In this document: positions 2,551 to 46,694 of the stretch, in pieces | How the letters are laid out: each line of letters starts with the position of its first letter | How positions within the stretch are numbered: position 1 is the first letter of the stretch | NCBI RefSeq assembly: GCF_046105845.1 | Contig: NZ_CP151004.1 | Strand: one strand, 5' to 3' | Origin: Escherichia coli | GTDB taxonomy: Bacteria; Pseudomonadota; Gammaproteobacteria; Enterobacterales; Enterobacteriaceae | Length of the DNA stretch: 64,000 bases | Notes under the pieces: model-generated | The model's database searches: none | Told to the model about the DNA's origin: nothing | Seen by the model: the letters and a program-made list of their open reading frames with translations, nothing else | Program-made: the position numbers and the translations under genes

Positions 2551-4053
2551 TTACGCCGCAATGGCGTTCATGATCGCCGGAACGGAAAGCTCTGCCAGCG
2601 GGATCTCCGCTACCTGTTTGCGATCGCGCATGATAATCACCCGGTCGGCATAGCCCACCAGCTCTTCCAGCTCGGAGGAGATCACCAGCAGCGCCAGTCC
2701 ATCGGCGCACAGCGTTTCAATCAGGCGGATGATCTCGGCGTGGGCACCAACATCAATTCCGCGCGTTGGCTCGTCGAGGATCAGAAATTGCGGTCGGGTC
2801 AGTAGCCAACGTGAAAGCAACACTTTTTGCTGATTGCCGCCGGAGAGAAATTCAATCGGTTGTTCGGTTGAAGGTGTGCGAATGCCAAGCTGGCGGATAA
2901 AGCGTTGGGCAATCTCTTGCTGTTCTTTGCGGGAAATCGGTCGTAGCCAGCCGCGCTGGGCCTGGAGAGCGAGGATGATATTTTCCCGCACCGAGGCGGC
3001 GGCGATGATGCCATCGGTTTTCCTGTCTTCCGGGCAGAAGCCGATGCCCAGTACCGAAGCCTGATGTGGCGATCGCAGGGTTTGCGGTTTGCCTTTGATC
3101 AACGCCGTGCCGCTATCAGCTGGTTTGATACCGAAGATCACTTCGGCAGTTTCGGTACGTCCTGATCCCAGCAAGCCTGCCAGACCGACGATCTCGCCGG
3201 GGCGTACTTCGAGATCAAACGGTGCGATCGTTCCTTTTTTGCCGTAATTTTTGAACGCGGCAACGGGTTTGTCGCTCAGCAATGTTCGTCCGGCACGCTG
3301 TAGCGCGTGGGTGTCCAGCTCGCGCCCCAGCATCATTTTTACCAGTTCGATCTGCGGTAGCTCGCGGGTTTCCCGACAGCCTACGAAACTGCCGTTGCGT
3401 AAGACGGTGATCCGATCGCTGACCTGATAGACCTGATCGAGAAAGTGAGTAACGAAGATCAGGCTGACGCCGCGATCGCGCAACTGACGCATCAGGCCAA
3501 ACAGTAACTCTACTTCCTGAGTGTCGAGGCTGGCGGTGGGTTCATCGAGGATCAGCACTTTGGCGGAGAGATCGATGGCCCGGCAAATGGCGACGATTTG
3601 CTGCATCGCGACTGAAAAGCGGTTGAGCGGTTCGCGCACGTCGAGGGAGAAACCGTAAGATGCCATCAGTTCGGTGGCGCGCTTTTCCATCTCTTTACGG
3701 CGTAGAAGGCCGAAACGTTTGGGTTCGCGACCTATGAATAGATTATCAGCGACCGACATATTGGGTAGCAGGTTGACTTCCTGATAGACGGTGCCGATGC
3801 CGAGTTGTTGTGCATGGGCGGTATTTTTCGGTGAAATAGTCTGGCCTTCCAGCCAGATGGTGCCACGATCGGCGTGGTAGACACCGGTTAATGCTTTGAT
3901 TAGCGTTGATTTTCCCGCCCCGTTTTCACCGAGCAGCGCCATGATTTCACCACGGCGCAGGCTGAAATCAACGTTGTCTAACGCTTTGACACCGGGGAAA
4001 AATTTACTTAATCCTTCGGTGCGGAGGATTTCCTGGTGTTGGTTAGTATTCAT
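2551..4053 (-). CDS. ytfR: ABC transporter ATP-binding protein with duplicated ATPase domains
   Basis: Two Walker A motifs (GENGAGKS, GLLGSGRT) and LSGG signature; start trimmed to MNTNQHQEILRTEGL giving 500 aa. Confidence 0.88.
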   Translation of the reverse strand: MNTNQHQEILRTEGLSKFFPGVKALDNVDFSLRRGEIMALLGENGAGKSTLIKALTGVYHADRGTIWLEGQTISPKNTAHAQQLGIGTVYQEVNLLPNMSVADNLFIGREPKRFGLLRRKEMEKRATELMASYGFSLDVREPLNRFSVAMQQIVAICRAIDLSAKVLILDEPTASLDTQEVELLFGLMRQLRDRGVSLIFVTHFLDQVYQVSDRITVLRNGSFVGCRETRELPQIELVKMMLGRELDTHALQRAGRTLLSDKPVAAFKNYGKKGTIAPFDLEVRPGEIVGLAGLLGSGRTETAEVIFGIKPADSGTALIKGKPQTLRSPHQASVLGIGFCPEDRKTDGIIAAASVRENIILALQAQRGWLRPISRKEQQEIAQRFIRQLGIRTPSTEQPIEFLSGGNQQKVLLSRWLLTRPQFLILDEPTRGIDVGAHAEIIRLIETLCADGLALLVISSELEELVGYADRVIIMRDRKQVAEIPLAELSVPAIMNAIAA

Positions 4054-4095
4054 AGTTTCCCCCGTTGTAAAGCGTGCGCCAGATAAGACACAACA

Positions 4096-4183
4096 GCGTC
4101 GCATCAGGCATCTCGCACAACCGCCGGATGCGGCGTGAATGCCTTATCCGGCGGCCCACAAGTCGGCATCAGGCATTGATGCC
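4096..4183. repeat. REP/BIME-like palindromic units in ytfR-ytfQ intergenic region
   Basis: GCCGGATGCGGCGTGAATGCCTTATCCGGC-type imperfect palindromes typical of enterobacterial REP. Confidence 0.75.
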
Positions 4184-4185
4184 CC

Positions 4186-5142
4186 TCAATACCCCATGTT
4201 TTTCTTCTTCTCTAACTCTTCTTTTGCGGTATCAGGCAGGTAAAGGGTGGACTTGGTCAGGGTCAGCTTTTCAGGCATGGTGCCGTCTTTTTTATATTTC
4301 TCCAGCGCATCAAAAGCGGGGCCTGCCATGTTCGGCGTCAGTTCAACGCTGGCGTTCGCTTCGCCATCAATCATCGCTTTGTAGATGTCCGGCACGCCGT
4401 CGATAGAGCCTGTCAGGATATCTTTGCCCGGTTTCAGGCCCGCTTCTTTAATTGCCTGAATTGCACCAATCACCATGTCATCGTTATGGGCGTAAACCAT
4501 GCAGATGTTTTTGCCGTTGTTTTCCGCTTTGATAAAGCTCTCCATGACTTCTTTGCCTTTACTGCGGGTGAAGTCACCTGACTGCGAGCGGATAATTTTG
4601 ATATTTGGCGCATTCTTTATGGCTTCGGCAAAGCCTTTCTTACGGTCAATGGCGACGCTGGCCCCAACAGTGCCCTGCAGCTCCACCACGTTGCATGGTT
4701 TGCCATTCACTTCTTTTACCAGCCAGTCACCAATCAACTTGCCTTCGAGGATGTTGTCGGCAGTGACGGTGGTCATATAGAGAGACTTGTCTTTCACATC
4801 GATGGAACGATCGAGCAAGAAGACCGGGATTTCGGCATCTTTCGCCTCTTTTAATACCGGCTCCCAACCGGTCGCTACCACTGGAGCGATAAAGATCGCA
4901 TCCACCCCTTGTGCAACGAAGGAACGTACCGCTTTAATCTGGTTTTCCTGCTTTTGTTGACCATCGGCGATTTTCAGTGTGATACCGCGTTTTTCGGCTT
5001 CACTTTTCGCCACGTTGGTTTCAGCGGCACGCCAGCCGGATTCCGATCCGACCTGCGAAAATCCAACGGTTAATGGAGCGGCCAACGCCATAGACGACAT
5101 GGCTGCCGAGACTGCAGAGACTACAAGTAAGCGTTTCCACAT
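4186..5142 (-). CDS. ytfQ: periplasmic sugar-binding protein of ABC transporter
   Basis: 318-aa ORF with signal peptide (MWKRLLVVSAVSAAMSSMALA) and periplasmic binding-protein fold signature; operon context. Confidence 0.88.
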   Translation of the reverse strand: MWKRLLVVSAVSAAMSSMALAAPLTVGFSQVGSESGWRAAETNVAKSEAEKRGITLKIADGQQKQENQIKAVRSFVAQGVDAIFIAPVVATGWEPVLKEAKDAEIPVFLLDRSIDVKDKSLYMTTVTADNILEGKLIGDWLVKEVNGKPCNVVELQGTVGASVAIDRKKGFAEAIKNAPNIKIIRSQSGDFTRSKGKEVMESFIKAENNGKNICMVYAHNDDMVIGAIQAIKEAGLKPGKDILTGSIDGVPDIYKAMIDGEANASVELTPNMAGPAFDALEKYKKDGTMPEKLTLTKSTLYLPDTAKEELEKKKNMGY

Positions 5143-5384
5143 AGGGTTGTCCTCGTCGGGGTAATTATTATTGGTGAAAAGATGTTCGCGAAAAAACTAT
5201 AGACAATTCGTTATGTAACGGATTGCGTTACATCACACTTCAAAAAAGTAAATAAAACGTTAATCACAAGTTTGTAATCGCTTTCATCTCACTATGAAAA
5301 ATGCGGCTACGGTTATGGATTTTCCTGCTCTTTAAACCACCTTAAAACTGGCTAAAAAGGAAAATGAAGAAGAAAACAAGCGAA

Positions 5385-5410
5385 GACATTCGGCGCGAGT
5401 TGGCTATAAT
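5385..5410 (+). promoter_or_regulatory. putative sigma70 promoter for ppa (-10 TATAAT, weak -35 GACATT)
   Basis: TATAAT hexamer at about 5405..5410, 41 bp upstream of ppa ATG; -35-like hexamer with 14-bp spacer. Confidence 0.35.
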
Positions 5411-5451
5411 ACTCGGCACTTGTTTGCCACATATTTTTAAAGGAAACAGAC

Positions 5452-5982
5452 ATGAGCTTACTCAACGTCCCTGCGGGTAAAGATCTGCCGGAAGACATCT
5501 ACGTTGTTATTGAGATCCCGGCTAACGCAGATCCGATCAAATACGAAATCGACAAAGAGAGCGGCGCACTGTTCGTTGACCGCTTCATGTCCACCGCGAT
5601 GTTCTATCCGTGCAACTACGGTTACATCAACCACACCCTGTCTCTGGACGGTGACCCGGTTGACGTACTGGTCCCGACTCCGTACCCGCTGCAGCCGGGT
5701 TCTGTGATCCGTTGCCGTCCGGTTGGCGTTCTGAAAATGACCGACGAAGCCGGTGAAGATGCGAAACTGGTTGCGGTTCCGCACAGCAAGCTGAGCAAAG
5801 AATACGATCACATTAAAGACGTTAACGATCTGCCTGAACTGCTGAAAGCACAGATCGCTCACTTCTTCGAGCACTACAAAGACCTCGAAAAAGGCAAGTG
5901 GGTGAAAGTTGAAGGCTGGGAAAACGCAGAAGCCGCTAAAGCTGAAATCGTTGCCTCCTTCGAGCGCGCAAAGAATAAATAA
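5452..5982 (+). CDS. ppa: inorganic pyrophosphatase
   Basis: 176-aa ORF; sequence recognisable as E. coli PPase (…[29 protein letters not shown]…). Confidence 0.95.
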
Positions 5983-6000
5983 GTTCTTCTAGCGCAATAA

Positions 6001-6036
6001 CCCTGAACGCCGGGCTTCGGTTAGTAAGGGTTTTTT
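6001..6036 (+). terminator. putative rho-independent terminator downstream of ppa
   Basis: GC-rich stem region CCCTGAACGCCGGGCTTCGG…AAGGG followed by TTTTTT. Confidence 0.5.
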
Positions 6037-6060
6037 ATGCCCGCGATAAATAAACACGCC

Positions 6061-6411
6061 TTATTCCACCACCGCCTGCAAACGTAATAACGCCTCTTCC
6101 ACCACTTCACCCGCAGCCAGACCAATACGCTTTGCCAGCCGGGCGCGTAGATCCATCATCCGCACCTGATTCACCAGCACCACGCCGTGCACATCGCCTT
6201 CTTCGCAATGTAAAGGAACGCTGAATCCTGCATAACGGGCAAAATTTCCGCCCTGCGTAATGGGGGCCACCAGCGTCATTCCCAGTTGATTAAAGGCTTG
6301 AACGGAGAGCACAAGCGCAGGTCGACCAGCACCTTGCTGTTCATGGCCGCTTGCTGGATCAAAGCCAACCAGCACAATGTCTCCCCGTTCAAATTCACTT
6401 TTCTTTACCAT
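6061..6411 (-). CDS. chpB: MazF/PemK-family endoribonuclease toxin ChpBK
   Basis: 116-aa ORF (MVKKSEFERGDIVLVGFDPASGHEQ…); start overlaps stop of upstream antitoxin gene. Confidence 0.9.
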   Translation of the reverse strand: MVKKSEFERGDIVLVGFDPASGHEQQGAGRPALVLSVQAFNQLGMTLVAPITQGGNFARYAGFSVPLHCEEGDVHGVVLVNQVRMMDLRARLAKRIGLAAGEVVEEALLRLQAVVE

Positions 6412-6656
6412 ATTTCGTCACCCGCAGGGGTGGATTTACCCCAGACATCCTGCTCGCTAAGTTCCGTGGCGTTCATGTCACACTGTGCCAGCAGTTCATC
6501 AAGCGAGTAGCGCCTGGAGATGGGTGTCAGAATCAGTTGATTGTTGCTCACTTGCGCCTCCACGCTCTGCCCCGGCCGTAAGTTAAGTTCTTTCATCACA
6601 ACATTAGGAATGACCATACCTGAACTATTCCCCCATCTTTTTATGGTAATACGCAT
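6405..6656 (-). CDS. chpS: MazE/AbrB-type antitoxin ChpBI
   Basis: 83-aa product from internal Met (MRITIKRWGNSSGMVIPN…); SD AAGGAGG upstream; classic antitoxin-toxin gene pair. Confidence 0.88.
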   Translation of the reverse strand: MRITIKRWGNSSGMVIPNVVMKELNLRPGQSVEAQVSNNQLILTPISRRYSLDELLAQCDMNATELSEQDVWGKSTPAGDEIW

Positions 6657-6669
6657 CTGCACCTCCTTA

Positions 6670-6688
6670 AGTTATACAAAGTATAACT
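6670..6688. promoter_or_regulatory. 8-3-8 inverted repeat AGTTATACaaaGTATAACT immediately upstream of chpS; candidate autoregulatory operator
   Basis: Perfect palindrome a few bp upstream of the chpS SD; TA operons are typically autorepressed at such sites. Confidence 0.5.
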
Positions 6689-6815
6689 CACGGTGCTACA
6701 GGAAACGTTTTACCCCTGCGCATTTGTGAACGCCAGCAGAGTTTTTTATGCGTTAACAGATATGGAAAGCGGCTCGGAGAGAAAAGCAAAAGGTGAGGGA
6801 ATTACAAAACAGAAT

Positions 6816-6856
6816 GCGAGTCGTCTCGCAAAAAACAACGCCACCCGAAGGTGGCG
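6816..6856 (-). terminator. rho-independent terminator downstream of ytfP (tandem hairpins)
   Basis: On minus strand GCCACCttcgGGTGGC followed by GTTGTTTTTTG, then GCGAGacgaCTCGC. Confidence 0.75.
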
Positions 6857-6861
6857 TATGG

Positions 6862-7203
6862 TTACTTATCCCTGTCTAACCAGTCGCCGCTTTCAATTAG
6901 CTTTAATCCATCGACGGGTCGTTGATAAACGTACATCCATGCACTCCCGTACGGCGTCTGAATCAACTGGCGCGCGTATTCACCGCCCCTGGTGCGCAAG
7001 GCATCAAGTTCGGCCAGCGTGGCGTTGTCAATACGATAAACTTCACCGTGTACTGTTCCGTTCCCCGGAACTGCGCCTGGATAGTGGCCCAGGCTATACA
7101 ACTGGTAGTTATCGATACTGAAATCGCCCAGTAACTGGGCATTGGTCATCCAGTGACTGTTGCCTTGTTTGTGGCGTAAACTGCCGTAGACAAATATTCG
7201 CAT
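6862..7203 (-). CDS. ytfP: gamma-glutamylcyclotransferase-like (AIG2-like) protein
   Basis: 113-aa ORF (MRIFVYGSLRHKQGNSHWM…) with YGSL motif; directly downstream of tamB. Confidence 0.85.
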   Translation of the reverse strand: MRIFVYGSLRHKQGNSHWMTNAQLLGDFSIDNYQLYSLGHYPGAVPGNGTVHGEVYRIDNATLAELDALRTRGGEYARQLIQTPYGSAWMYVYQRPVDGLKLIESGDWLDRDK

Positions 7204-7205
7204 TG

Positions 7206-12757
<5,552 letters not shown>

Positions 12758-42552: not shown

Positions 42553-42571
42553 TGTGTCTCCCTCCATCAAT

Positions 42572-42599
42572 GGCAGTCACCATTAGTATGGTCACTGCC
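42572..42599. promoter_or_regulatory. inverted repeat GGCAGTCACCAT-tagt-ATGGTCACTGCC just upstream of aidB start
   Basis: 12-bp near-perfect palindrome (1 mismatch) about 20 bp upstream of aidB; could equally be the yjfC terminator. Confidence 0.4.
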
Positions 42600-42635
42600 A
42601 TGGATTCATGACAGAAAGAGATTGCTAAAACATTC

Positions 42636-43799
42636 TTATCCAGCAATGTAATGCGGAACGAAACGTGAGGTGTCTTTGGTGATCAGCGTGTTATCTTCAC
42701 GGATCCCCATTCCGCACGCTTCATCATCGACAATCCAGCTACCGATGAGTGTGTAGCTATCGCCAAATCGCGGCAGAGGTTGAAACGCCTGGTAGATCAT
42801 CGGTTCATCGGCGTAATCACCATCAGCGTGGTCAACGACGTTATTCTGACCGTCGAAAATGGTGACATTGCCGCCTTCGCGCGAGTAGATCGGTTTACGC
42901 ACATAGCTTTCGCCAGCGGCAATCTGCGGTTTTTCGCCCTCAAACCAGGATGCAAGAAGGTTAGGATGACCAGGGAAGAAGCGCCAAAGCAGTGGCATTA
43001 GCCCTTTATTACTCAAGATACTTTTCCATAACGGCTCCACCCATTGCTCGCGACGCTTGCGCAGCAGCGGACCGTTATCGTCACGCATCATCCACTCTAG
43101 CGGATACAGCTTAAATGCACGCTGGATGACATTATCATCAAGATCGGTCAGTACACCGCCGACGCCCAAACCGAGATCTTCAATGTAGATAAACCGCGAC
43201 TCCTGCCCTGCCTGCTGGGCGCAGTCCTGCAAATACAGCACGGTAGTCCTGTCTTCATCGGTGTCCTGACAGCAGCAAAAATAAAACGGTTCCCGACTGT
43301 AAAGCTCGCTAAAGCGTGAAATCAGGCGTTCCTGAATAGCATTGTACTGATCGGCATCACGCGGAATAATGCCGCTGCGCCGGGCATCCTCCAGCCACAG
43401 CCACTGGAAATAAGCCGACTCGTACAATGAAGTTGGCGTATCGGCGTTGTACTCCAGTAGCTTCACCGGCGCATTGCCACACCAGGCAAAATCCATCCGG
43501 CCATACAGCGAAGGATCTCGTGCGCGCCAGCTTTCGGCGATCACATCCCAGTACAATGGCGGGATCGCCAGTTGCGTCAGGATCTCTTCGTCTTTAACCG
43601 CGCGATCCACCACCTCAAGGCACATCTGATGCAGTTCCGCAGTCGGTTTTTCGATCTGCTCTTCAATCTGACGCAGGGTAAAGCGGTAAGCCCGACTCTC
43701 ATCCCAATAGATTTCATTGTCGATGATATGAAAGTCGAAACCGTTGTCAGCGGCGATCTGGTCCAGATCCCACCGTACAGGAACGTTGTGTCTCAGCAT
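42636..43799 (-). CDS. yjfC: glutathionylspermidine-synthase-like ATP-grasp protein
   Basis: Start trimmed to MLRHNVPVRWDLDQIAADNGFDF… (387 aa); overlaps yjfM stop. Confidence 0.85.
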   Translation of the reverse strand: MLRHNVPVRWDLDQIAADNGFDFHIIDNEIYWDESRAYRFTLRQIEEQIEKPTAELHQMCLEVVDRAVKDEEILTQLAIPPLYWDVIAESWRARDPSLYGRMDFAWCGNAPVKLLEYNADTPTSLYESAYFQWLWLEDARRSGIIPRDADQYNAIQERLISRFSELYSREPFYFCCCQDTDEDRTTVLYLQDCAQQAGQESRFIYIEDLGLGVGGVLTDLDDNVIQRAFKLYPLEWMMRDDNGPLLRKRREQWVEPLWKSILSNKGLMPLLWRFFPGHPNLLASWFEGEKPQIAAGESYVRKPIYSREGGNVTIFDGQNNVVDHADGDYADEPMIYQAFQPLPRFGDSYTLIGSWIVDDEACGMGIREDNTLITKDTSRFVPHYIAG

Positions 43800-43801
43800 G
43801 A

Positions 43802-44440
43802 TTAGCCTCCCCAATGCCCACGGGCGCTGGAAGAACGACCATAGCCGCCGCGAGAAACGGTTGACGCTTTTTTGGTGGTAAAGCCGCCCGAAGAGTAAGA
43901 CTCTTTTTTGCCAGAACCGGAGCGCCAGGAGTAATCACCAGAAGTGTTGCGCCAGACAGGGCGCGAAGCAAAAGAGGAACCGCCGCTGTTATAAACAAAC
44001 TGCTCATCACGATCTTTACGTATAACCCGGCTTAACAAAAATCCAGAAACGACCGGGATCCAACTCTGTTCAACGTTGTCGTAGTAACAATTTTCATACT
44101 TAGACTGACAATTCTGCTGAGTCATATTCTTCGGAACATCGGCATAAAACGCCGCTTTGGCGTTGTTCCAGCCATGAGCACAGATATCTGAATTATTTCC
44201 GTCATCAATACAATCCTGCACAGTCGAGTAAAACGTTCCGTCGCCGTCGTTATCGACATCGCCACTATCGCCACAACCTTTCAATACGAAAAAAGCGGCA
44301 CCGCCCATTAGCGCCAACGTTAAGTATTTTTGTGCGTAACGATTGCGACGCGGTTCAAAAGGATTATTCGGTCTACCAATGCGACTGATCGCTCCGTGAC
44401 CAATTTTACTGTTATTTCTTGATTTGCGTTTTCTGGCCAT
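43802..44440 (-). CDS. yjfM: DUF1190-type protein with basic N-terminus, Cys-rich middle and Gly/Ser/Arg/Tyr-rich C-terminal tail
   Basis: 212-aa ORF; possible lipobox (FVLKGC); low-complexity C-terminus. Confidence 0.8.
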   Translation of the reverse strand: MARKRKSRNNSKIGHGAISRIGRPNNPFEPRRNRYAQKYLTLALMGGAAFFVLKGCGDSGDVDNDGDGTFYSTVQDCIDDGNNSDICAHGWNNAKAAFYADVPKNMTQQNCQSKYENCYYDNVEQSWIPVVSGFLLSRVIRKDRDEQFVYNSGGSSFASRPVWRNTSGDYSWRSGSGKKESYSSGGFTTKKASTVSRGGYGRSSSARGHWGG

Positions 44441-44449
44441 GATCGTCCA

Positions 44450-44848
44450 TTACCATGTCATACAAGCTGCGTTAAAAATACCGCCAGCCAGTGCGGCGGT
44501 TCCCATAAACATTCCTGCTGCGGTATTGTGATTAATAATTTTTTCGCTTAATGCGGGCATATAAAGTCTGACGCCAGCAAAAACGAGTAACTGAATCACC
44601 AGTGCGATCCCGCCCCAGGCGAAATAGTCTGGAATACTCACCGCATTGATTGCCGCACTGGATAACGGGATCACGTAACCCAACAATGTACCGCTGAACG
44701 CCAGTGACGCCGCGGTATTATTGTTTTTGATTAACTGCCATTCGTTGTGCGGTGTAATTTTAGAATAGATAAACAGAAAAATAATCACCATAGCCACGCC
44801 AATAAAAAAATAGGCACTAAAGGCAAGAAGAGAATCCAGTATATGCAT
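44450..44848 (-). CDS. yjfL: DUF350-type inner membrane protein
   Basis: Start trimmed to MHILDSLLAFSAYFFIGVAMVIIFLF… (132 aa); 4 predicted TM segments. Confidence 0.8.
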   Translation of the reverse strand: MHILDSLLAFSAYFFIGVAMVIIFLFIYSKITPHNEWQLIKNNNTAASLAFSGTLLGYVIPLSSAAINAVSIPDYFAWGGIALVIQLLVFAGVRLYMPALSEKIINHNTAAGMFMGTAALAGGIFNAACMTW

Positions 44849-44865
44849 TGTAAACGTCCTTGTAA

Positions 44866-45525
44866 TTAACCAATAATATGAAGTGATGTCAGCGGGATAT
44901 CGACACCCAACGCGCGCGAAAATAACCACTCTGGCTCGCCGAGATCGTTAAAAGATTCCTCACCATTTAGCAGCAAATATTCGTAAGTATCTTCGGTTAC
45001 TTGCCGTTGGTAGCCCATGGTAAAATTATGGACCTCCCATTTGGCATGGTTTTGATTTTCTACTTTTTCCAGCATGTAGACGGGTTCGATATTTCCCGGT
45101 TCTTCGCTGTTAAAAAATCGCTGCCAGCGTTTTTCCTGCCAGTTTAAGGTCATTGCCCCCATCGCTTTGGCATTGATCGTCTCGCGCCAGTGACTCTCTT
45201 TACTGATACCGTAGCTCTCTTCATAGACAAAGAGCTTGATATCATCAATGTCATCAATATTTTCGCCGCCGGTGGTATTGATTTGCAGAAATTCATCGCC
45301 CGAAGTGTAGTAGCGGAAAATCTGGCTACCGCCGCCCAGATCGATGCGGCTGACGGCGGCTACCGTAAATTCCTCACCCGGCAGCGCAATCAGCAATTCA
45401 TCTTCCAGCAAACGAAACGCTAACGTGTCGAGCGTAAAACCACTATTGAGATGCAGACCCAGCGGACCGCGAGCGATAGCAGGCTTATTATCCTTGCCAA
45501 ACAGACGCTGGAAAAAACCAGACAT
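44866..45525 (-). CDS. yjfK: DUF2491-type protein
   Basis: 219-aa soluble ORF in conserved yjfI-yjfC cluster. Confidence 0.8.
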   Translation of the reverse strand: MSGFFQRLFGKDNKPAIARGPLGLHLNSGFTLDTLAFRLLEDELLIALPGEEFTVAAVSRIDLGGGSQIFRYYTSGDEFLQINTTGGENIDDIDDIKLFVYEESYGISKESHWRETINAKAMGAMTLNWQEKRWQRFFNSEEPGNIEPVYMLEKVENQNHAKWEVHNFTMGYQRQVTEDTYEYLLLNGEESFNDLGEPEWLFSRALGVDIPLTSLHIIG

Positions 45526-45575
45526 ATTTTATCCTTAAAATAGTTGCCAGCCTTGCAGTGAGGCTGGCAAAAAAA

Positions 45576-46274
45576 TTACTCGCCCTGTTGGCGTTGCAGT
45601 CTTGCTAATACATCCTGGGCGCTACTTTTATTGCTACCGCCTATTCCGGCTTCCGCCAGCTTTTCATCAAGATCGCGACCGTCTGCGACTTTTTCCAACT
45701 GTGCAGCAGCATCCAGACGAGCCTGACGTTCGGCCTGACGCGTTTGCAGGCGTTTTAAGGATTCTGCCGCTGTCGAAACGCTGGAAGATGCGCCAACGGT
45801 AGAGGTCGTTACAGCCTGTTGTGCACGCTGCATGGCTTCAGTGGCTTTAACGACTTCCATTTGCTGCTCAAACTGAGCGATACGCTGCGCTGTCGCTGTA
45901 ACTGCTTTTTCCACGCCATCACGGGAGACTTCCAGATTCGACAACACTTGCTCTTCAGCGGTAATGAGATTCTCAAGGCGCGCGATTTCTTCAGCAACTT
46001 CGTTAATCAACGACGGATTAACGTTCTTGCTTAACGCTTCCAGCGCACGAGCTTCCAGACTGGCTTTGCGCTCACGTAAATCTTTCAGCTTATCGTGACT
46101 TAATTTCACCCGCGCCAGCAGATCAACGCGAGATTTTCCGGCTTTATCGAGTTCAGCTTTAGCGTCACGAATATGCTGTTCCAGCATGCGCACGCCCTGG
46201 GTTTCTTCAATGGATTCTTCCGCTTGGGAGATAAACGATTTCCCCAGCGTAAATAAACTTTTTAAAATTCCCAT
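45576..46274 (-). CDS. yjfJ: PspA/IM30-family coiled-coil protein
   Basis: 232-aa ORF with extended heptad-repeat coiled coil typical of PspA/Vipp1. Confidence 0.85.
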   Translation of the reverse strand: MGILKSLFTLGKSFISQAEESIEETQGVRMLEQHIRDAKAELDKAGKSRVDLLARVKLSHDKLKDLRERKASLEARALEALSKNVNPSLINEVAEEIARLENLITAEEQVLSNLEVSRDGVEKAVTATAQRIAQFEQQMEVVKATEAMQRAQQAVTTSTVGASSSVSTAAESLKRLQTRQAERQARLDAAAQLEKVADGRDLDEKLAEAGIGGSNKSSAQDVLARLQRQQGE

Positions 46275-46292
46275 AAATACCCGTCCTTGTAA

Positions 46293-46694
46293 TTAGTGTG
46301 AATATTCTTCTGTAATTTCAGCCAGATCCAATGCGTTATCTACCAGCGAGGTTATCTCAAGCAGGATATCTTCAAGAGAAGATTTAAGCGATAACGCCCC
46401 GAAAACAATGTAATACTCTTCCTGTTGTACGCTGGAGATCCCTACCGATGACAACGGCATCATCTTCTGATTTCTTAATAAGAAGGTATTAAATTCATCT
46501 GGATTGCTGATACTACTCACCGGACAAATAAAGGTTTCGATAATCATTTGGCGGGAAGTAAAAAGAATATTGATTTGCAAATCGCCATAATCATTCATTT
46601 TAATAATTAATGCGTTCTCGCTATTTGTTACATCAATATTTTGTTCAGGTACAGTTTGCAGCGCCGTCGCCAGCGCCAACGGATTCCATGTCAT
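46293..46694 (-). CDS. yjfI: DUF2170-type protein
   Basis: 133-aa ORF; first gene of the yjfI-yjfC cluster. Confidence 0.8.
   Translation of the reverse strand: MTWNPLALATALQTVPEQNIDVTNSENALIIKMNDYGDLQINILFTSRQMIIETFICPVSSISNPDEFNTFLLRNQKMMPLSSVGISSVQQEEYYIVFGALSLKSSLEDILLEITSLVDNALDLAEITEEYSH

What the first reader, a model, noticed from the sequence alone, without database searches (positions are those of the whole stretch)
42636..44440. ATP-grasp ligase translationally coupled to a protein with a Gly/Ser/Arg/Tyr-rich tail
yjfM ends in a low-complexity tail (…SGGSSFASRPVW…SGSGKKESYSSGGFTTKKASTVSRGGYGRSSSARGHWGG) and its stop overlaps the start of the ATP-grasp gene yjfC by 13 bp, implying coupled expression. 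This resembles enzyme-substrate pairs in which an ATP-grasp enzyme modifies a partner protein or peptide. It is speculative but testable.
Basis: inference. Interest (0 to 1): 0.45.

Follow-up and report, generated by a model that had tools for sequence, protein, structure and literature searches.

The report
Spermidine ligase beside likely protein substrate
In E. coli, an enzyme known to attach the polyamine spermidine to peptides is encoded directly after an envelope protein whose conserved Gly-Gly end and nearby motif make it the best candidate for the enzyme's still-unknown natural target, though this is unproven.

Summary
The window is the E. coli yjfIJKLMC-aidB region. Both ORFs are real. 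The 13-bp overlap is an artefact of a longest-ORF TTG start. The ATG supported by annotation, homologs and PDB lies 2 nt after yjfM's TAA, and yjfM's last two Gly codons form a GGAGG Shine-Dalgarno. YjfC is already known (PDB 7UK6; 'peptide--spermidine ligase', natural substrate unknown). YjfM is a DUF1190 protein. Its Gly/Ser/Arg tail is predicted disordered but carries conserved motifs. Across 125 divergent family members a T-x-S-R-G-G-F/Y-G motif is nearly invariant, and 86% end exactly in Gly-Gly (about 5% expected), usually after W/F/M. DUF1190 lies directly upstream of the ligase in 78 of 80 genomes (median gap 5 nt) and in 10 of 11 metagenomic representatives. The paralogous pairs ygiBC and yjfMC diverged together. 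In an AlphaFold fusion model the conserved motif reaches pLDDT 81 next to the ligase, against about 40 alone. Best reading (about 0.45): YjfC docks on the motif and amidates YjfM's terminal glycine with spermidine. The main objection is that DUF1190 looks like an exported lipoprotein, so modification would have to precede export. Nothing has been tested biochemically.

The parts
42636..43799 (-). yjfC, 387 aa: stand-alone GSP_synth/ATP-grasp amide ligase ('peptide--spermidine ligase YjfC')
   Evidence: ORF. RefSeq coordinates and product names. Pfam PF03738, E 2.5e-149, full length. PDB 7UK6/7UK7 are this protein.
43802..44440 (-). yjfM, 212 aa: DUF1190 protein
   Evidence: ORF. RefSeq annotation. 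Pfam PF06693 covers residues 69-211 and model positions 5-159 of 159, so the tail belongs to the family domain.
43806..43810 (-). GGAGG Shine-Dalgarno for yjfC, formed by the Gly211-Gly212 codons of yjfM. It lies 6 nt before the ATG (43797-43799); the yjfM stop TAA is at 43802-43804.
   Evidence: Read directly from the sequence.
43805..43813 (-). Codons for the C-terminal Trp-Gly-Gly of YjfM, the proposed acyl donor (Gly212 alpha-carboxylate)
   Evidence: Translation checked. The last two residues are GG in 107 of 125 family representatives (about 5% expected) and in 77 of 78 ligase-linked genes. The residue before them is mostly W, F or M.
43838..43861 (-). Codons for T-V-S-R-G-G-Y-G (residues 194-201), the most conserved tail motif and proposed ligase-docking element
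   Evidence: R197, G199 and G201 are 97-100% conserved; T194, S196, G198 and F/Y200 are 77-94% conserved. Overlapping residues 189-198 reach pLDDT 81 with a beta strand in the ligase-tail fusion model, against 39-46 in YjfM alone.
43805..44020 (-). Basic Gly/Ser/Arg-rich tail (residues 141-212, net charge +8); residues 177-212 are the part predicted disordered
   Evidence: Composition and charge. pLDDT is below 50 over residues 141-153 and 177-203, with a weak beta-hairpin at 158-172.
44030..44242 (-). Folded acidic core of DUF1190 (residues 67-137) with four invariant cysteines (C77, C87, C111, C118)
44273..44326 (-). Hydrophobic signal-anchor helix (residues 39-53, YLTLALMGGAAFFVL) followed by an atypical lipobox L-K-G-C56. 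It is preceded by a 38-residue N-terminal segment of net charge +11.
   Evidence: Hydropathy and charge; helix 38-51; lipobox-like pattern in 104 of 125 family members.
44450..46694 (-). Upstream genes of the same cluster: yjfL (DUF350, 44450-44848), yjfK (DUF2491, 44866-45525), yjfJ (PspA/IM30, 45576-46274), yjfI (DUF2170, 46293-46694)
   Evidence: RefSeq annotation. The same gene order recurs in distant metagenomic contigs. Described by Ravi et al. 2024, PMC11237479.

Best explanation
YjfM is the physiological acyl-donor substrate of YjfC.

Shown:
- YjfC is a cytoplasmic ATP-grasp amide ligase of the glutathionylspermidine-synthetase fold.
- The two genes are co-translated from a 2-nt junction.
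- The YjfM tail carries a conserved internal motif, T-x-S-R-G-G-F/Y-G.
- The tail ends in a strictly terminal, conserved [W/F/M]-Gly-Gly, at least 11 residues after the invariant Arg of that motif.

Inferred:
- The ligase binds the internal motif by beta-strand addition.
- It activates the free alpha-carboxylate of the last glycine as an acyl phosphate. This is the chemistry that glutathionylspermidine synthetase applies to the glycine of glutathione.
- It transfers the activated glycine to an amine of spermidine or a related polyamine, giving a C-terminally polyaminated protein (+127.147 Da for spermidine).
- The rest of YjfM looks exported, so the modification would be made on the precursor in the cytoplasm before or during Sec translocation.
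- The polycationic end would then act in the envelope, in a cluster that also encodes PspA-type membrane-stress proteins.
For: 1. Enzyme chemistry. Pfam GSP_synth matches full length and solved structures 7UK6/7UK7 are this protein. RefSeq K-12 names both YjfC and YgiC 'peptide--spermidine ligase'. A 2025 review states that peptide-spermidine ligase activity was shown (Pederick 2023) and that the physiological substrate remains unknown.

2. Terminal Gly-Gly. It is present in 107 of 125 representatives clustered at 50% identity, against about 5% expected from tail composition; another 12 end in Gly-Ser. It is present in 77 of 78 genes next to a ligase. The motif is almost never followed by further residues, which suggests that the free carboxylate matters.

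3. The Gly-Gly is not a by-product of the overlapping ribosome-binding site. The penultimate Gly codon is GGC in 53% and GGA in only 18%. All 7 loci with gaps above 50 nt still end in [W/F]GG.

4. Conserved internal motif. R197, G199 and G201 are near-invariant across the family. At least 11 residues (mode 15) always separate the invariant Arg from the C-terminus.

5. Gene linkage. DUF1190 lies directly upstream on the same strand in 78 of 80 ligase loci from different species, and in the same operon in a 79th. The ligase lies directly downstream in 10 of 11 divergent DUF1190 representatives. Median gap is 5 nt. The minimal conserved unit is this pair: ygiB-ygiC has none of the other yjf genes.

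6. Co-divergence. Pairwise distances of the two proteins correlate with r = 0.94. YjfM-type proteins always sit with YjfC-type ligases and YgiB-type with YgiC-type, including in three genomes that hold both pairs.

7. AlphaFold2 fusion of YjfC, a (GGS)9 linker and YjfM residues 183-212, with 22 paired rows. The linker has pLDDT 28-40. Tail residues 189-198 have pLDDT 81 with a beta strand at T-V-S-R. The same residues score 39-46 in YjfM alone.

8. Control. The true glutathione-using paralog gss has no DUF1190 neighbour.

9. The modification could have been missed. The C-terminal tryptic peptides are GHWGG and SMGG.
Against: 1. Topology. YjfM has a strongly basic N-terminus (+11) and a hydrophobic anchor followed by an acidic domain with four invariant Cys. 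104 of 125 relatives have a lipobox. The second hydrophobic stretch is not a membrane helix: Kyte-Doolittle 19-residue score is 0.84 for YjfM and 0.77 at the family median, and AlphaFold folds it as beta strands inside the core at pLDDT about 90. The tail is therefore expected in the periplasm and the ligase in the cytoplasm. Modification before export is an assumption.

2. In the fusion model the last five residues (GHWGG) stay below pLDDT 50, so the glycine is not confidently placed in an active site. I could not see coordinates or run a scrambled control.

3. Linkage and co-divergence show a specific functional tie, not catalysis, and both are confounded by species phylogeny.

4. Variants ending in Gly-Ser also keep the ligase. 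One DUF1190 gene lacks a ligase neighbour and one ligase lacks DUF1190.

5. I could not read Pederick 2023. I do not know which peptides were tested, or whether the authors already considered YjfM and YgiB.

6. A transcriptome study groups yjfIJKL without yjfM and yjfC.
Confidence: 0.45

Rival explanations
1. YjfM and YjfC are functional partners but not enzyme and substrate. YjfC makes a small peptide-polyamine conjugate, or modifies some other cytoplasmic protein. YjfM is an envelope lipoprotein or anchored periplasmic protein working in the same polyamine and membrane-stress pathway. Its conserved tail and free Gly-Gly end serve a periplasmic interaction, for example with a PDZ-type protease, peptidoglycan, LPS or the DUF350 membrane protein.
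For: Predicted export signals, the acidic core with four invariant cysteines, and the absence of a second membrane helix place the tail outside the cytoplasm. YgiB was detected in vesicle proteomes. Published comparative genomics calls DUF1190 a 'metal-chelating lipoprotein' within a polyamine/PspA operon and does not propose it as a substrate. Reviews state that the substrate is unknown. The terminal residues are not confidently docked in the model.
Against: It does not explain why the one universally conserved neighbour of a carboxylate-amine ligase ends in a strictly terminal Gly-Gly. It does not explain why the pair, rather than the larger operon, is the conserved unit. It does not explain why the tail motif gains confidence next to the ligase.
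Confidence: 0.3
2. The tail binds the ligase without being modified. The T-x-S-R-G-G-F/Y-G motif would act as a docking or regulatory element. It would hold the newly made ligase at the membrane or translocon, or inhibit or activate it, while the true acyl donor is something else.
For: The fusion model gives confidence to the internal motif but not to the terminal Gly-Gly. YgiC, annotated as cytoplasmic, was recovered in inner-membrane fractions. The pair co-diverges.
Against: It needs the tail and the ligase in the same compartment as much as the substrate model does. It leaves the strictly terminal Gly-Gly and the minimum spacer of 11 residues unexplained.
Confidence: 0.1
3. YjfM is the acyl donor but the acceptor in the cell is not a free polyamine. 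The activated terminal glycine would be joined to another amine, such as the head group of phosphatidylethanolamine, a lysine of another protein or a peptidoglycan amine. This would be a ubiquitin- or Atg8-like tagging reaction in an operon that also encodes an ESCRT-III relative (PspA).
For: The terminal Gly-Gly resembles ubiquitin-like modifiers. The cluster is built around the PspA/IM30 protein YjfJ. Ravi et al. suggest that such operons covalently modify membrane components.
Against: The only activity reported for the enzyme uses spermidine. The GSP_synth fold is known for polyamine acceptors. There is no evidence here for any other acceptor.
Confidence: 0.07
4. There is no specific relationship. 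The two genes simply share an operon, the tail is a compositionally biased linker, and the terminal Gly-Gly reflects the need for a G-rich ribosome-binding site in front of the next gene.
For: The Gly-Gly codons overlap the Shine-Dalgarno in E. coli. GGA is enriched about threefold at the penultimate codon (18% against 7%, p = 0.0015).
Against: Most terminal codons are GGC-GGN, which does not form GGAGG. Loci with 54-522 nt gaps still end in [W/F]GG. The residue before the Gly-Gly and the internal motif are conserved at the protein level across 50%-identity clusters. Adjacency holds in 78 of 80 and 10 of 11 cases.
Confidence: 0.05

Closest known systems
E. coli glutathionylspermidine synthetase/amidase (Gss/GspSA) and trypanothione synthetase
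   Same: Same fold and family: PF03738, with PDB hits 2IO7 and 2VOB at E 1e-32 to 1e-38. These enzymes activate the carboxylate of a C-terminal glycine (the Gly of gamma-Glu-Cys-Gly) with ATP and join it to spermidine (established knowledge of the family).
   Different: YjfC lacks the amidase domain (387 against 619 aa). It falls far below the NCBIfam equivalog cut-off (163.5 against 882 bits). It is reported not to make glutathionylspermidine (Sui 2012, as cited). gss has no DUF1190 neighbour. The proposed acyl donor here is a 212-residue protein, not a tripeptide.
ygiB-ygiC pair of the E. coli tolC-ygiBC cluster
   Same: A paralogous pair with the same order and spacing (5-nt gap). YgiB is a DUF1190 protein ending in ...SRSMGG with the T-R-G-G-F-G motif. 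YgiC is 51% identical to YjfC and carries the same RefSeq product name. The two pairs are reported as redundant in a tolC-mutant growth phenotype.
   Different: YgiB has a canonical lipobox (LAGC) and a longer spacer. The pair stands without the PspA, DUF350 and DUF2491 genes. YjfM scores below the YgiB equivalog cut-off (45.7 against 223 bits).
RimK and ribosomal protein S6; tubulin tyrosine ligase
   Same: ATP-grasp enzymes that extend or modify the extreme C-terminal carboxylate of a folded, ribosomally made protein (established knowledge).
   Different: They add amino acids, not polyamines. Their substrates are cytoplasmic. RimK and its substrate are not encoded as a coupled gene pair.
Graspetide/microviridin ATP-grasp ligases with adjacent precursor peptides
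   Same: The substrate gene lies next to the ATP-grasp gene. The enzyme recognises a conserved motif at a distance from the modified site, and the products are modified in the cytoplasm before export (established knowledge). This matches the layout of docking motif, spacer and reactive end seen here.
   Different: Those enzymes make intramolecular side-chain lactones and lactams in short peptides. Here the partner is a folded 20-kDa protein and the reaction would be intermolecular, at the alpha-carboxylate.
SUMO- and ubiquitin-spermidine conjugates in eukaryotes (PMC12270671)
   Same: The same proposed product: spermidine amide-linked to the carboxylate of a protein's C-terminal Gly-Gly, formed with ATP.
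   Different: They are made by E1/E2 thioester chemistry, not by an ATP-grasp acyl phosphate. There is no sequence or fold relationship.

Membership tests
GSP_synth (PF03738) ATP-grasp amide ligases | Full-length match to the family profile and fold | tested here: met
   E 2.5e-149 over residues 14-385, model positions 3-371 of 371. PDB 7UK6/7UK7 are YjfC itself.
Bifunctional glutathionylspermidine synthetase/amidase (NCBIfam NF007801 equivalog) | Score above the curated cut-off, an amidase domain, and use of glutathione | tested here: not met
   163.5 bits against a cut-off of 882, and only the C-terminal half matches. The protein is 387 aa with no CHAP amidase domain. The literature reports no Gsp synthetase activity.
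Peptide--spermidine ligase (YgiC/YjfC) | Identity with the characterised E. coli protein | tested here: met
   The region is 99% identical in DNA to E. coli genomes. The same gene in K-12 is named 'peptide--spermidine ligase YjfC'. The activity itself comes from the literature and was not tested here.
DUF1190 (PF06693) | Profile match plus the family's invariant residues (4 Cys, P129, G133, the R-G-G-F/Y-G motif, terminal GG) | tested here: met
   E 9.3e-18, reaching the end of the model. All invariant columns are present in YjfM.
YgiB equivalog (NCBIfam NF008655) | Score above the curated cut-off | tested here: not met
   YjfM scores 45.7 bits against a cut-off of 223; YgiB scores 404. YjfM is a paralog and forms a distinct subfamily.
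Bacterial lipoprotein | Signal peptide ending in a lipobox [LVI][ASTVI][GAS]C | tested here: inconclusive
   YjfM has L-K-G-C, with Lys at position -2, after a 38-residue basic N-terminus. Some members of its subfamily lack the Cys. 104 of 125 family members fit a relaxed lipobox pattern. Acylation cannot be tested here.
Translationally coupled gene pair | Stop and start within a few nucleotides, with the ribosome-binding site inside the upstream gene | tested here: met
   TAA-TC-ATG with GGAGG in the last two codons. The median gap across 78 loci is 5 nt. Actual coupling of translation was not measured.
ATP-grasp enzyme with an adjacent ribosomally made substrate (RimK/S6-like, graspetide-like) | Substrate gene conserved next to the ligase gene | tested here: met
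   78 of 80 genome loci and 10 of 11 DUF1190 representatives.
ATP-grasp enzyme with an adjacent ribosomally made substrate (RimK/S6-like, graspetide-like) | Conserved recognition element and reactive site in the substrate | tested here: inconclusive
   The conserved motif and terminal Gly-Gly exist. The motif is modelled against the ligase at pLDDT 81 but the terminus is not, and no control model was possible.
ATP-grasp enzyme with an adjacent ribosomally made substrate (RimK/S6-like, graspetide-like) | Enzyme and substrate meet in one compartment | tested here: inconclusive
   The ligase has no signal peptide. The YjfM tail is predicted to be exported and there is no second membrane helix. 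Contact would be possible only before export.
ATP-grasp enzyme with an adjacent ribosomally made substrate (RimK/S6-like, graspetide-like) | Covalent modification of the partner by the enzyme | not testable with these tools
   This needs mass spectrometry or an in vitro assay. No report was found in the searchable literature.

The most novel reading that the evidence does not exclude
Bacteria carry a dedicated protein C-terminal polyamination system. A GspS-like ATP-grasp ligase docks on a conserved motif in the tail of a DUF1190 envelope protein and amidates its terminal Gly-Gly carboxylate with spermidine before export. This would give a polycation-tipped lipoprotein that works with PspA-type membrane-stress machinery (yjfIJKLMC) or with TolC (tolC-ygiBC). 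It would be a new bacterial post-translational modification. It would also be the bacterial counterpart, by different chemistry, of the SUMO- and ubiquitin-spermidine conjugates recently found in eukaryotes.
Probability: 0.4. Interest if true: 0.8.

Novelty: new variant of a known kind. Interest (0 to 1): 0.6.

Why it matters
YgiC and YjfC are E. coli enzymes with solved structures and a demonstrated chemistry. Reviews as late as 2025 still call their physiological substrate unknown, and YgiB and YjfM are still annotated only as 'DUF1190'.

If the tail is the substrate, four proteins of unknown function gain a role at once and a new protein modification is defined. Polyamine metabolism would also be linked mechanistically to envelope stress (PspA-like YjfJ) and to the growth defect reported for tolC mutants lacking both pairs.

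The analysis reduces a vague idea to a specific residue (Gly212), a specific mass shift (+127.147 Da) and specific mutants. It also explains why routine tryptic proteomics would never have seen the modification.

Tried and rejected
1. A second transmembrane helix. I asked whether the stretch SWIPVVSGFLLSRVI returns the tail to the cytoplasm. The charge pattern (basic N-terminus, acidic loop, basic tail in 98-99% of members) was suggestive. I rejected the idea because the hydropathy is too low and the stretch too short, and because AlphaFold folds it as beta strands of the core domain at pLDDT about 90.

2. Terminal Gly-Gly as a side effect of the Shine-Dalgarno. Rejected as a sufficient explanation.

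3. Natural DUF1190-ligase fusions as a clue to topology. The only database proteins with both Pfam domains are short singleton chimeras 80-99% identical to E. coli, which I take to be frameshift artefacts.

4. Correlation between the terminal residue and presence of the ligase. One ligase-less DUF1190 ends in WGS, but three members ending in Gly-Ser keep the ligase. No correlation.

5. Genome scans seeded with DUF1190 alignments failed because no stretch was conserved enough. I used the ligase as the seed instead.

7. Key papers could not be opened: Pederick 2023, Dhamdhere & Zgurskaya 2010 and Sui 2012.

8. The hairpin at the 3' end of yjfL is no more stable than shuffled sequence (z = -0.3).
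Full report
**Identity of the region.** The stretch 42400-46800 matches 5425 of 5426 complete E. coli genomes at 95-99% identity. On the minus strand it encodes yjfI, yjfJ, yjfK, yjfL, yjfM and yjfC, followed by aidB. The finding's coordinates, 42636-44440, cover yjfC and yjfM.

**Check of the observation.**
- The tail (residues 141-212) is 57% Gly+Ser+Arg+Tyr, against 28% elsewhere in the protein.
- The 13-bp overlap is not real. It follows from taking the first possible start, the TTG at 43814, of the longest ORF.
- RefSeq, including curated K-12, starts yjfC at the ATG at 43799 and gives 387 aa.
- The crystallised protein covers residues 1-387.
- In 78 homologous loci the ligase begins at the aligned Met, which is ATG in 77 of them.
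- The junction reads TGG GGA GGC TAA TC ATG. The gap is 2 nt. A perfect GGAGG lies inside the last two Gly codons of yjfM, 6 nt before the ATG.
- Close coupling is therefore real and conserved: the median gap is 5 nt, 63 of 78 loci have 10 nt or less, and 3 overlap by one base.

**What the two proteins are.**
- YjfC is a full-length GSP_synth/ATP-grasp protein with solved structures 7UK6 and 7UK7. It is far below the curated cut-off for true glutathionylspermidine synthetase/amidase.
- The literature says it does not make glutathionylspermidine but has peptide-spermidine ligase activity, and that the physiological substrate is unknown. K-12 RefSeq now names YjfC and YgiC 'peptide--spermidine ligase'.
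- YjfM is a DUF1190 protein. The Pfam model runs to its second-last residue, so the tail is part of the family.
- E. coli has a paralogous pair, ygiB-ygiC, with a 5-nt gap. YgiB ends ...TVTRGGFGES...SRSMGG.
- Ravi et al. [quoted passage not shown] They did not propose DUF1190 as the substrate.

**The tail is conserved, not junk.**
- Enterobacterial orthologs as low as 43% identical keep T-[VL]-S-R-G-G-[YF]-G-R-S-S-S-A-R-G-[HS]-W-G-G.
- A profile search of 1.84 billion representatives found 1142 clusters at E of 0.001 or better. I analysed 125 full-length members.
- Invariant or nearly invariant positions are four cysteines, P129, G133, P161, R197, G199, F/Y200 and G201.
- The last two residues are Gly-Gly in 107 of 125 (86%) and Gly-Ser in 12. 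About 5% Gly-Gly is expected from tail composition.
- The residue before the Gly-Gly is W in 54%, F in 16% and M in 6%.
- The number of residues from the invariant Arg to the C-terminus is never below 11, is most often 15, and reaches 50. The layout is a conserved motif, a flexible spacer of minimum length, and a strictly terminal Gly-Gly.

**Is the Gly-Gly only a ribosome-binding site?** In E. coli the two Gly codons form the Shine-Dalgarno. Across 77 loci GGA is enriched at the penultimate codon (18% against 7% background, p = 0.0015). However, 53% use GGC, which does not give GGAGG. All seven loci with gaps of 54-522 nt still end in [W/F]GG. The conservation is therefore at the protein level, and E. 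coli exploits it for a second purpose.

**Gene linkage.**
- I looked up eleven divergent DUF1190 representatives in metagenome assemblies. Ten have the ligase immediately downstream. Two of these were confirmed by tblastn on truncated contigs, and three end in Gly-Ser. One has no ligase.
- A genome scan seeded with the ligase returned 80 loci from different species, mostly Gammaproteobacteria with some Alphaproteobacteria and a Desulfurivibrionaceae genome.
- 78 of the 80 have a DUF1190 ORF directly upstream on the same strand. One (Vibrio ruber) has a rearranged operon that still contains it. One (Photobacterium) has none.
- Pairwise distances of the two proteins correlate with r = 0.94 (Mantel p = 0.001). 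This is confounded by species phylogeny.
- YjfM-type proteins always accompany YjfC-type ligases and YgiB-type proteins accompany YgiC-type ligases. This includes three genomes that hold both pairs, so the pair duplicated and stayed together as a unit.
- As a control, gss, which uses the small molecule glutathione, stands alone.

**Structure predictions.**
- With a 48-sequence family alignment, AlphaFold2 gives YjfM a helix at residues 38-51, a confident alpha/beta core at 67-137 (pLDDT about 90) and a disordered tail (pLDDT 39-57 from residue 177).
- The core has no detectable relative among solved structures.
- I then modelled a single chain of YjfC, a (GGS)9 linker and YjfM residues 183-212, using 22 rows in which each ligase was joined to its own neighbour's tail.
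- The ligase folded at pLDDT about 90 and the linker stayed at 28-40. Tail residues 189-198 (TKKASTVSRG) rose to a mean of 81, with a four-residue beta strand at T-V-S-R that has no partner strand within the tail.
- Residues 199-208 averaged 58, and the final GHWGG stayed below 50.
- This points to beta-strand docking of the conserved motif on the ligase.

**The main difficulty: compartment.**
- YjfM has 12 Lys/Arg in its first 38 residues, then a hydrophobic helix, then an acidic domain (net -10) with four invariant cysteines.
- 104 of 125 relatives carry a lipobox-like pattern, and the typical N-terminus is MKRS+, a hydrophobic stretch and then ...AC. These features predict export.
- I tested whether the second hydrophobic stretch could bring the tail back into the cytoplasm. 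Family-wide the loop is acidic (98%) and the tail basic (99%), as the positive-inside rule would predict. But the stretch is only 13-15 residues with a Kyte-Doolittle score of 0.77, and AlphaFold builds it into the core as beta strands. I rejected this idea.
- A cytoplasmic ligase could therefore act only on the precursor before or during translocation. Cytoplasmic modification before export is known for HMW1-type and AIDA-type adhesins and for ribosomal peptide natural products (established knowledge). Here it is an assumption.
- The YjfM subfamily is unusual. It has a long basic N-terminus, a conserved anchor LTLAIMGGAA and an atypical lipobox (L-K-G-C) that is sometimes missing.

**Conclusion.**
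- The best-supported mechanism, at about 0.45, is that YjfC docks on the T-x-S-R-G-G-F/Y-G motif and joins spermidine to the alpha-carboxylate of YjfM's terminal glycine.
- The principal rival, at about 0.3, is a functional partnership without catalysis, in which the tail serves a periplasmic role.
- Lesser rivals are non-covalent docking or regulation, a non-polyamine acceptor, and mere operon sharing.
- I found no paper proposing or testing the YjfM or YgiB tail as substrate. I could not read the 2023 biochemical paper, so priority is uncertain.
- The closest analogue of the proposed product is the SUMO- and ubiquitin-spermidine conjugate, formed on a C-terminal Gly-Gly by E1/E2 enzymes.
- The C-terminal tryptic peptides, GHWGG and SMGG, are too short for routine proteomics. 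That would explain why such a modification has gone unnoticed.

Noticed in passing
window 42566-42605: An 18-nt inverted repeat (89% complementary, 4-nt loop) lies between the yjfC stop and the aidB start. The yjfC-strand RNA folds at -35.3 kcal/mol (z = -5.0). No U-run follows it, so it is not a canonical intrinsic terminator. It may be an aidB operator or a REP-like element.
   Followed up: partly
window 45544-45570 (minus strand): A 10-bp GC-rich hairpin followed by a U-rich stretch lies between yjfJ and yjfK (z = -2.9). It may be an internal attenuator. A published transcriptome study defines a 'YjfJ iModulon' of yjfIJKL only, without yjfM and yjfC. The ligase pair may therefore be expressed differently from the upstream genes despite the 9-nt gap between yjfL and yjfM.
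   Followed up: partly
proteins P0052, P0061, P0072, P0107: Database gene calls carrying both DUF1190 and GSP_synth domains are short singletons 80-99% identical to E. coli. They look like frameshift chimeras across the 2-nt junction rather than genuine fusions.
   Followed up: no
L021 3568-4000 and L036 3479-4000: In Lacimicrobium and Bowmanella a 430-520 nt insert with a small ORF separates DUF1190 from the ligase, yet the DUF1190 proteins still end in WGG.
   Followed up: no
L043 (Vibrio ruber) 3947-9157; L044 (Photobacterium) 3956-5164: In Vibrio ruber the ligase has moved to the front of the operon: ligase, DUF2170, PspA, K+ channel, DUF2491, DUF350, DUF1190. The Photobacterium ligase is an orphan with no DUF1190 within 4 kb.
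   Followed up: partly
L003 2815-3849 and other loci: Outside Enterobacteriaceae the cluster usually includes a potassium-channel gene (Ion_trans_2, with a weak TrkA_N hit in L003-L005) between PspA and DUF2491, which E. coli lacks. The triad DUF350, DUF1190 and ligase also occurs without PspA.
   Followed up: no
window 44273-44440 (YjfM residues 1-56): The YjfM subfamily has a 38-residue, highly basic N-terminal extension and a sequence-conserved membrane anchor (LTLAIMGGAA) with an atypical or missing lipobox cysteine. Most DUF1190 proteins instead have a short MKRS+ lipoprotein signal. The anchor may have a role beyond export.
   Followed up: partly
literature (PMC4858940): YgiC, annotated as cytoplasmic, was among proteins recovered in inner-membrane fractions whose membrane association changed in a min mutant. 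This fits some tethering of the ligase at the membrane.
   Followed up: no
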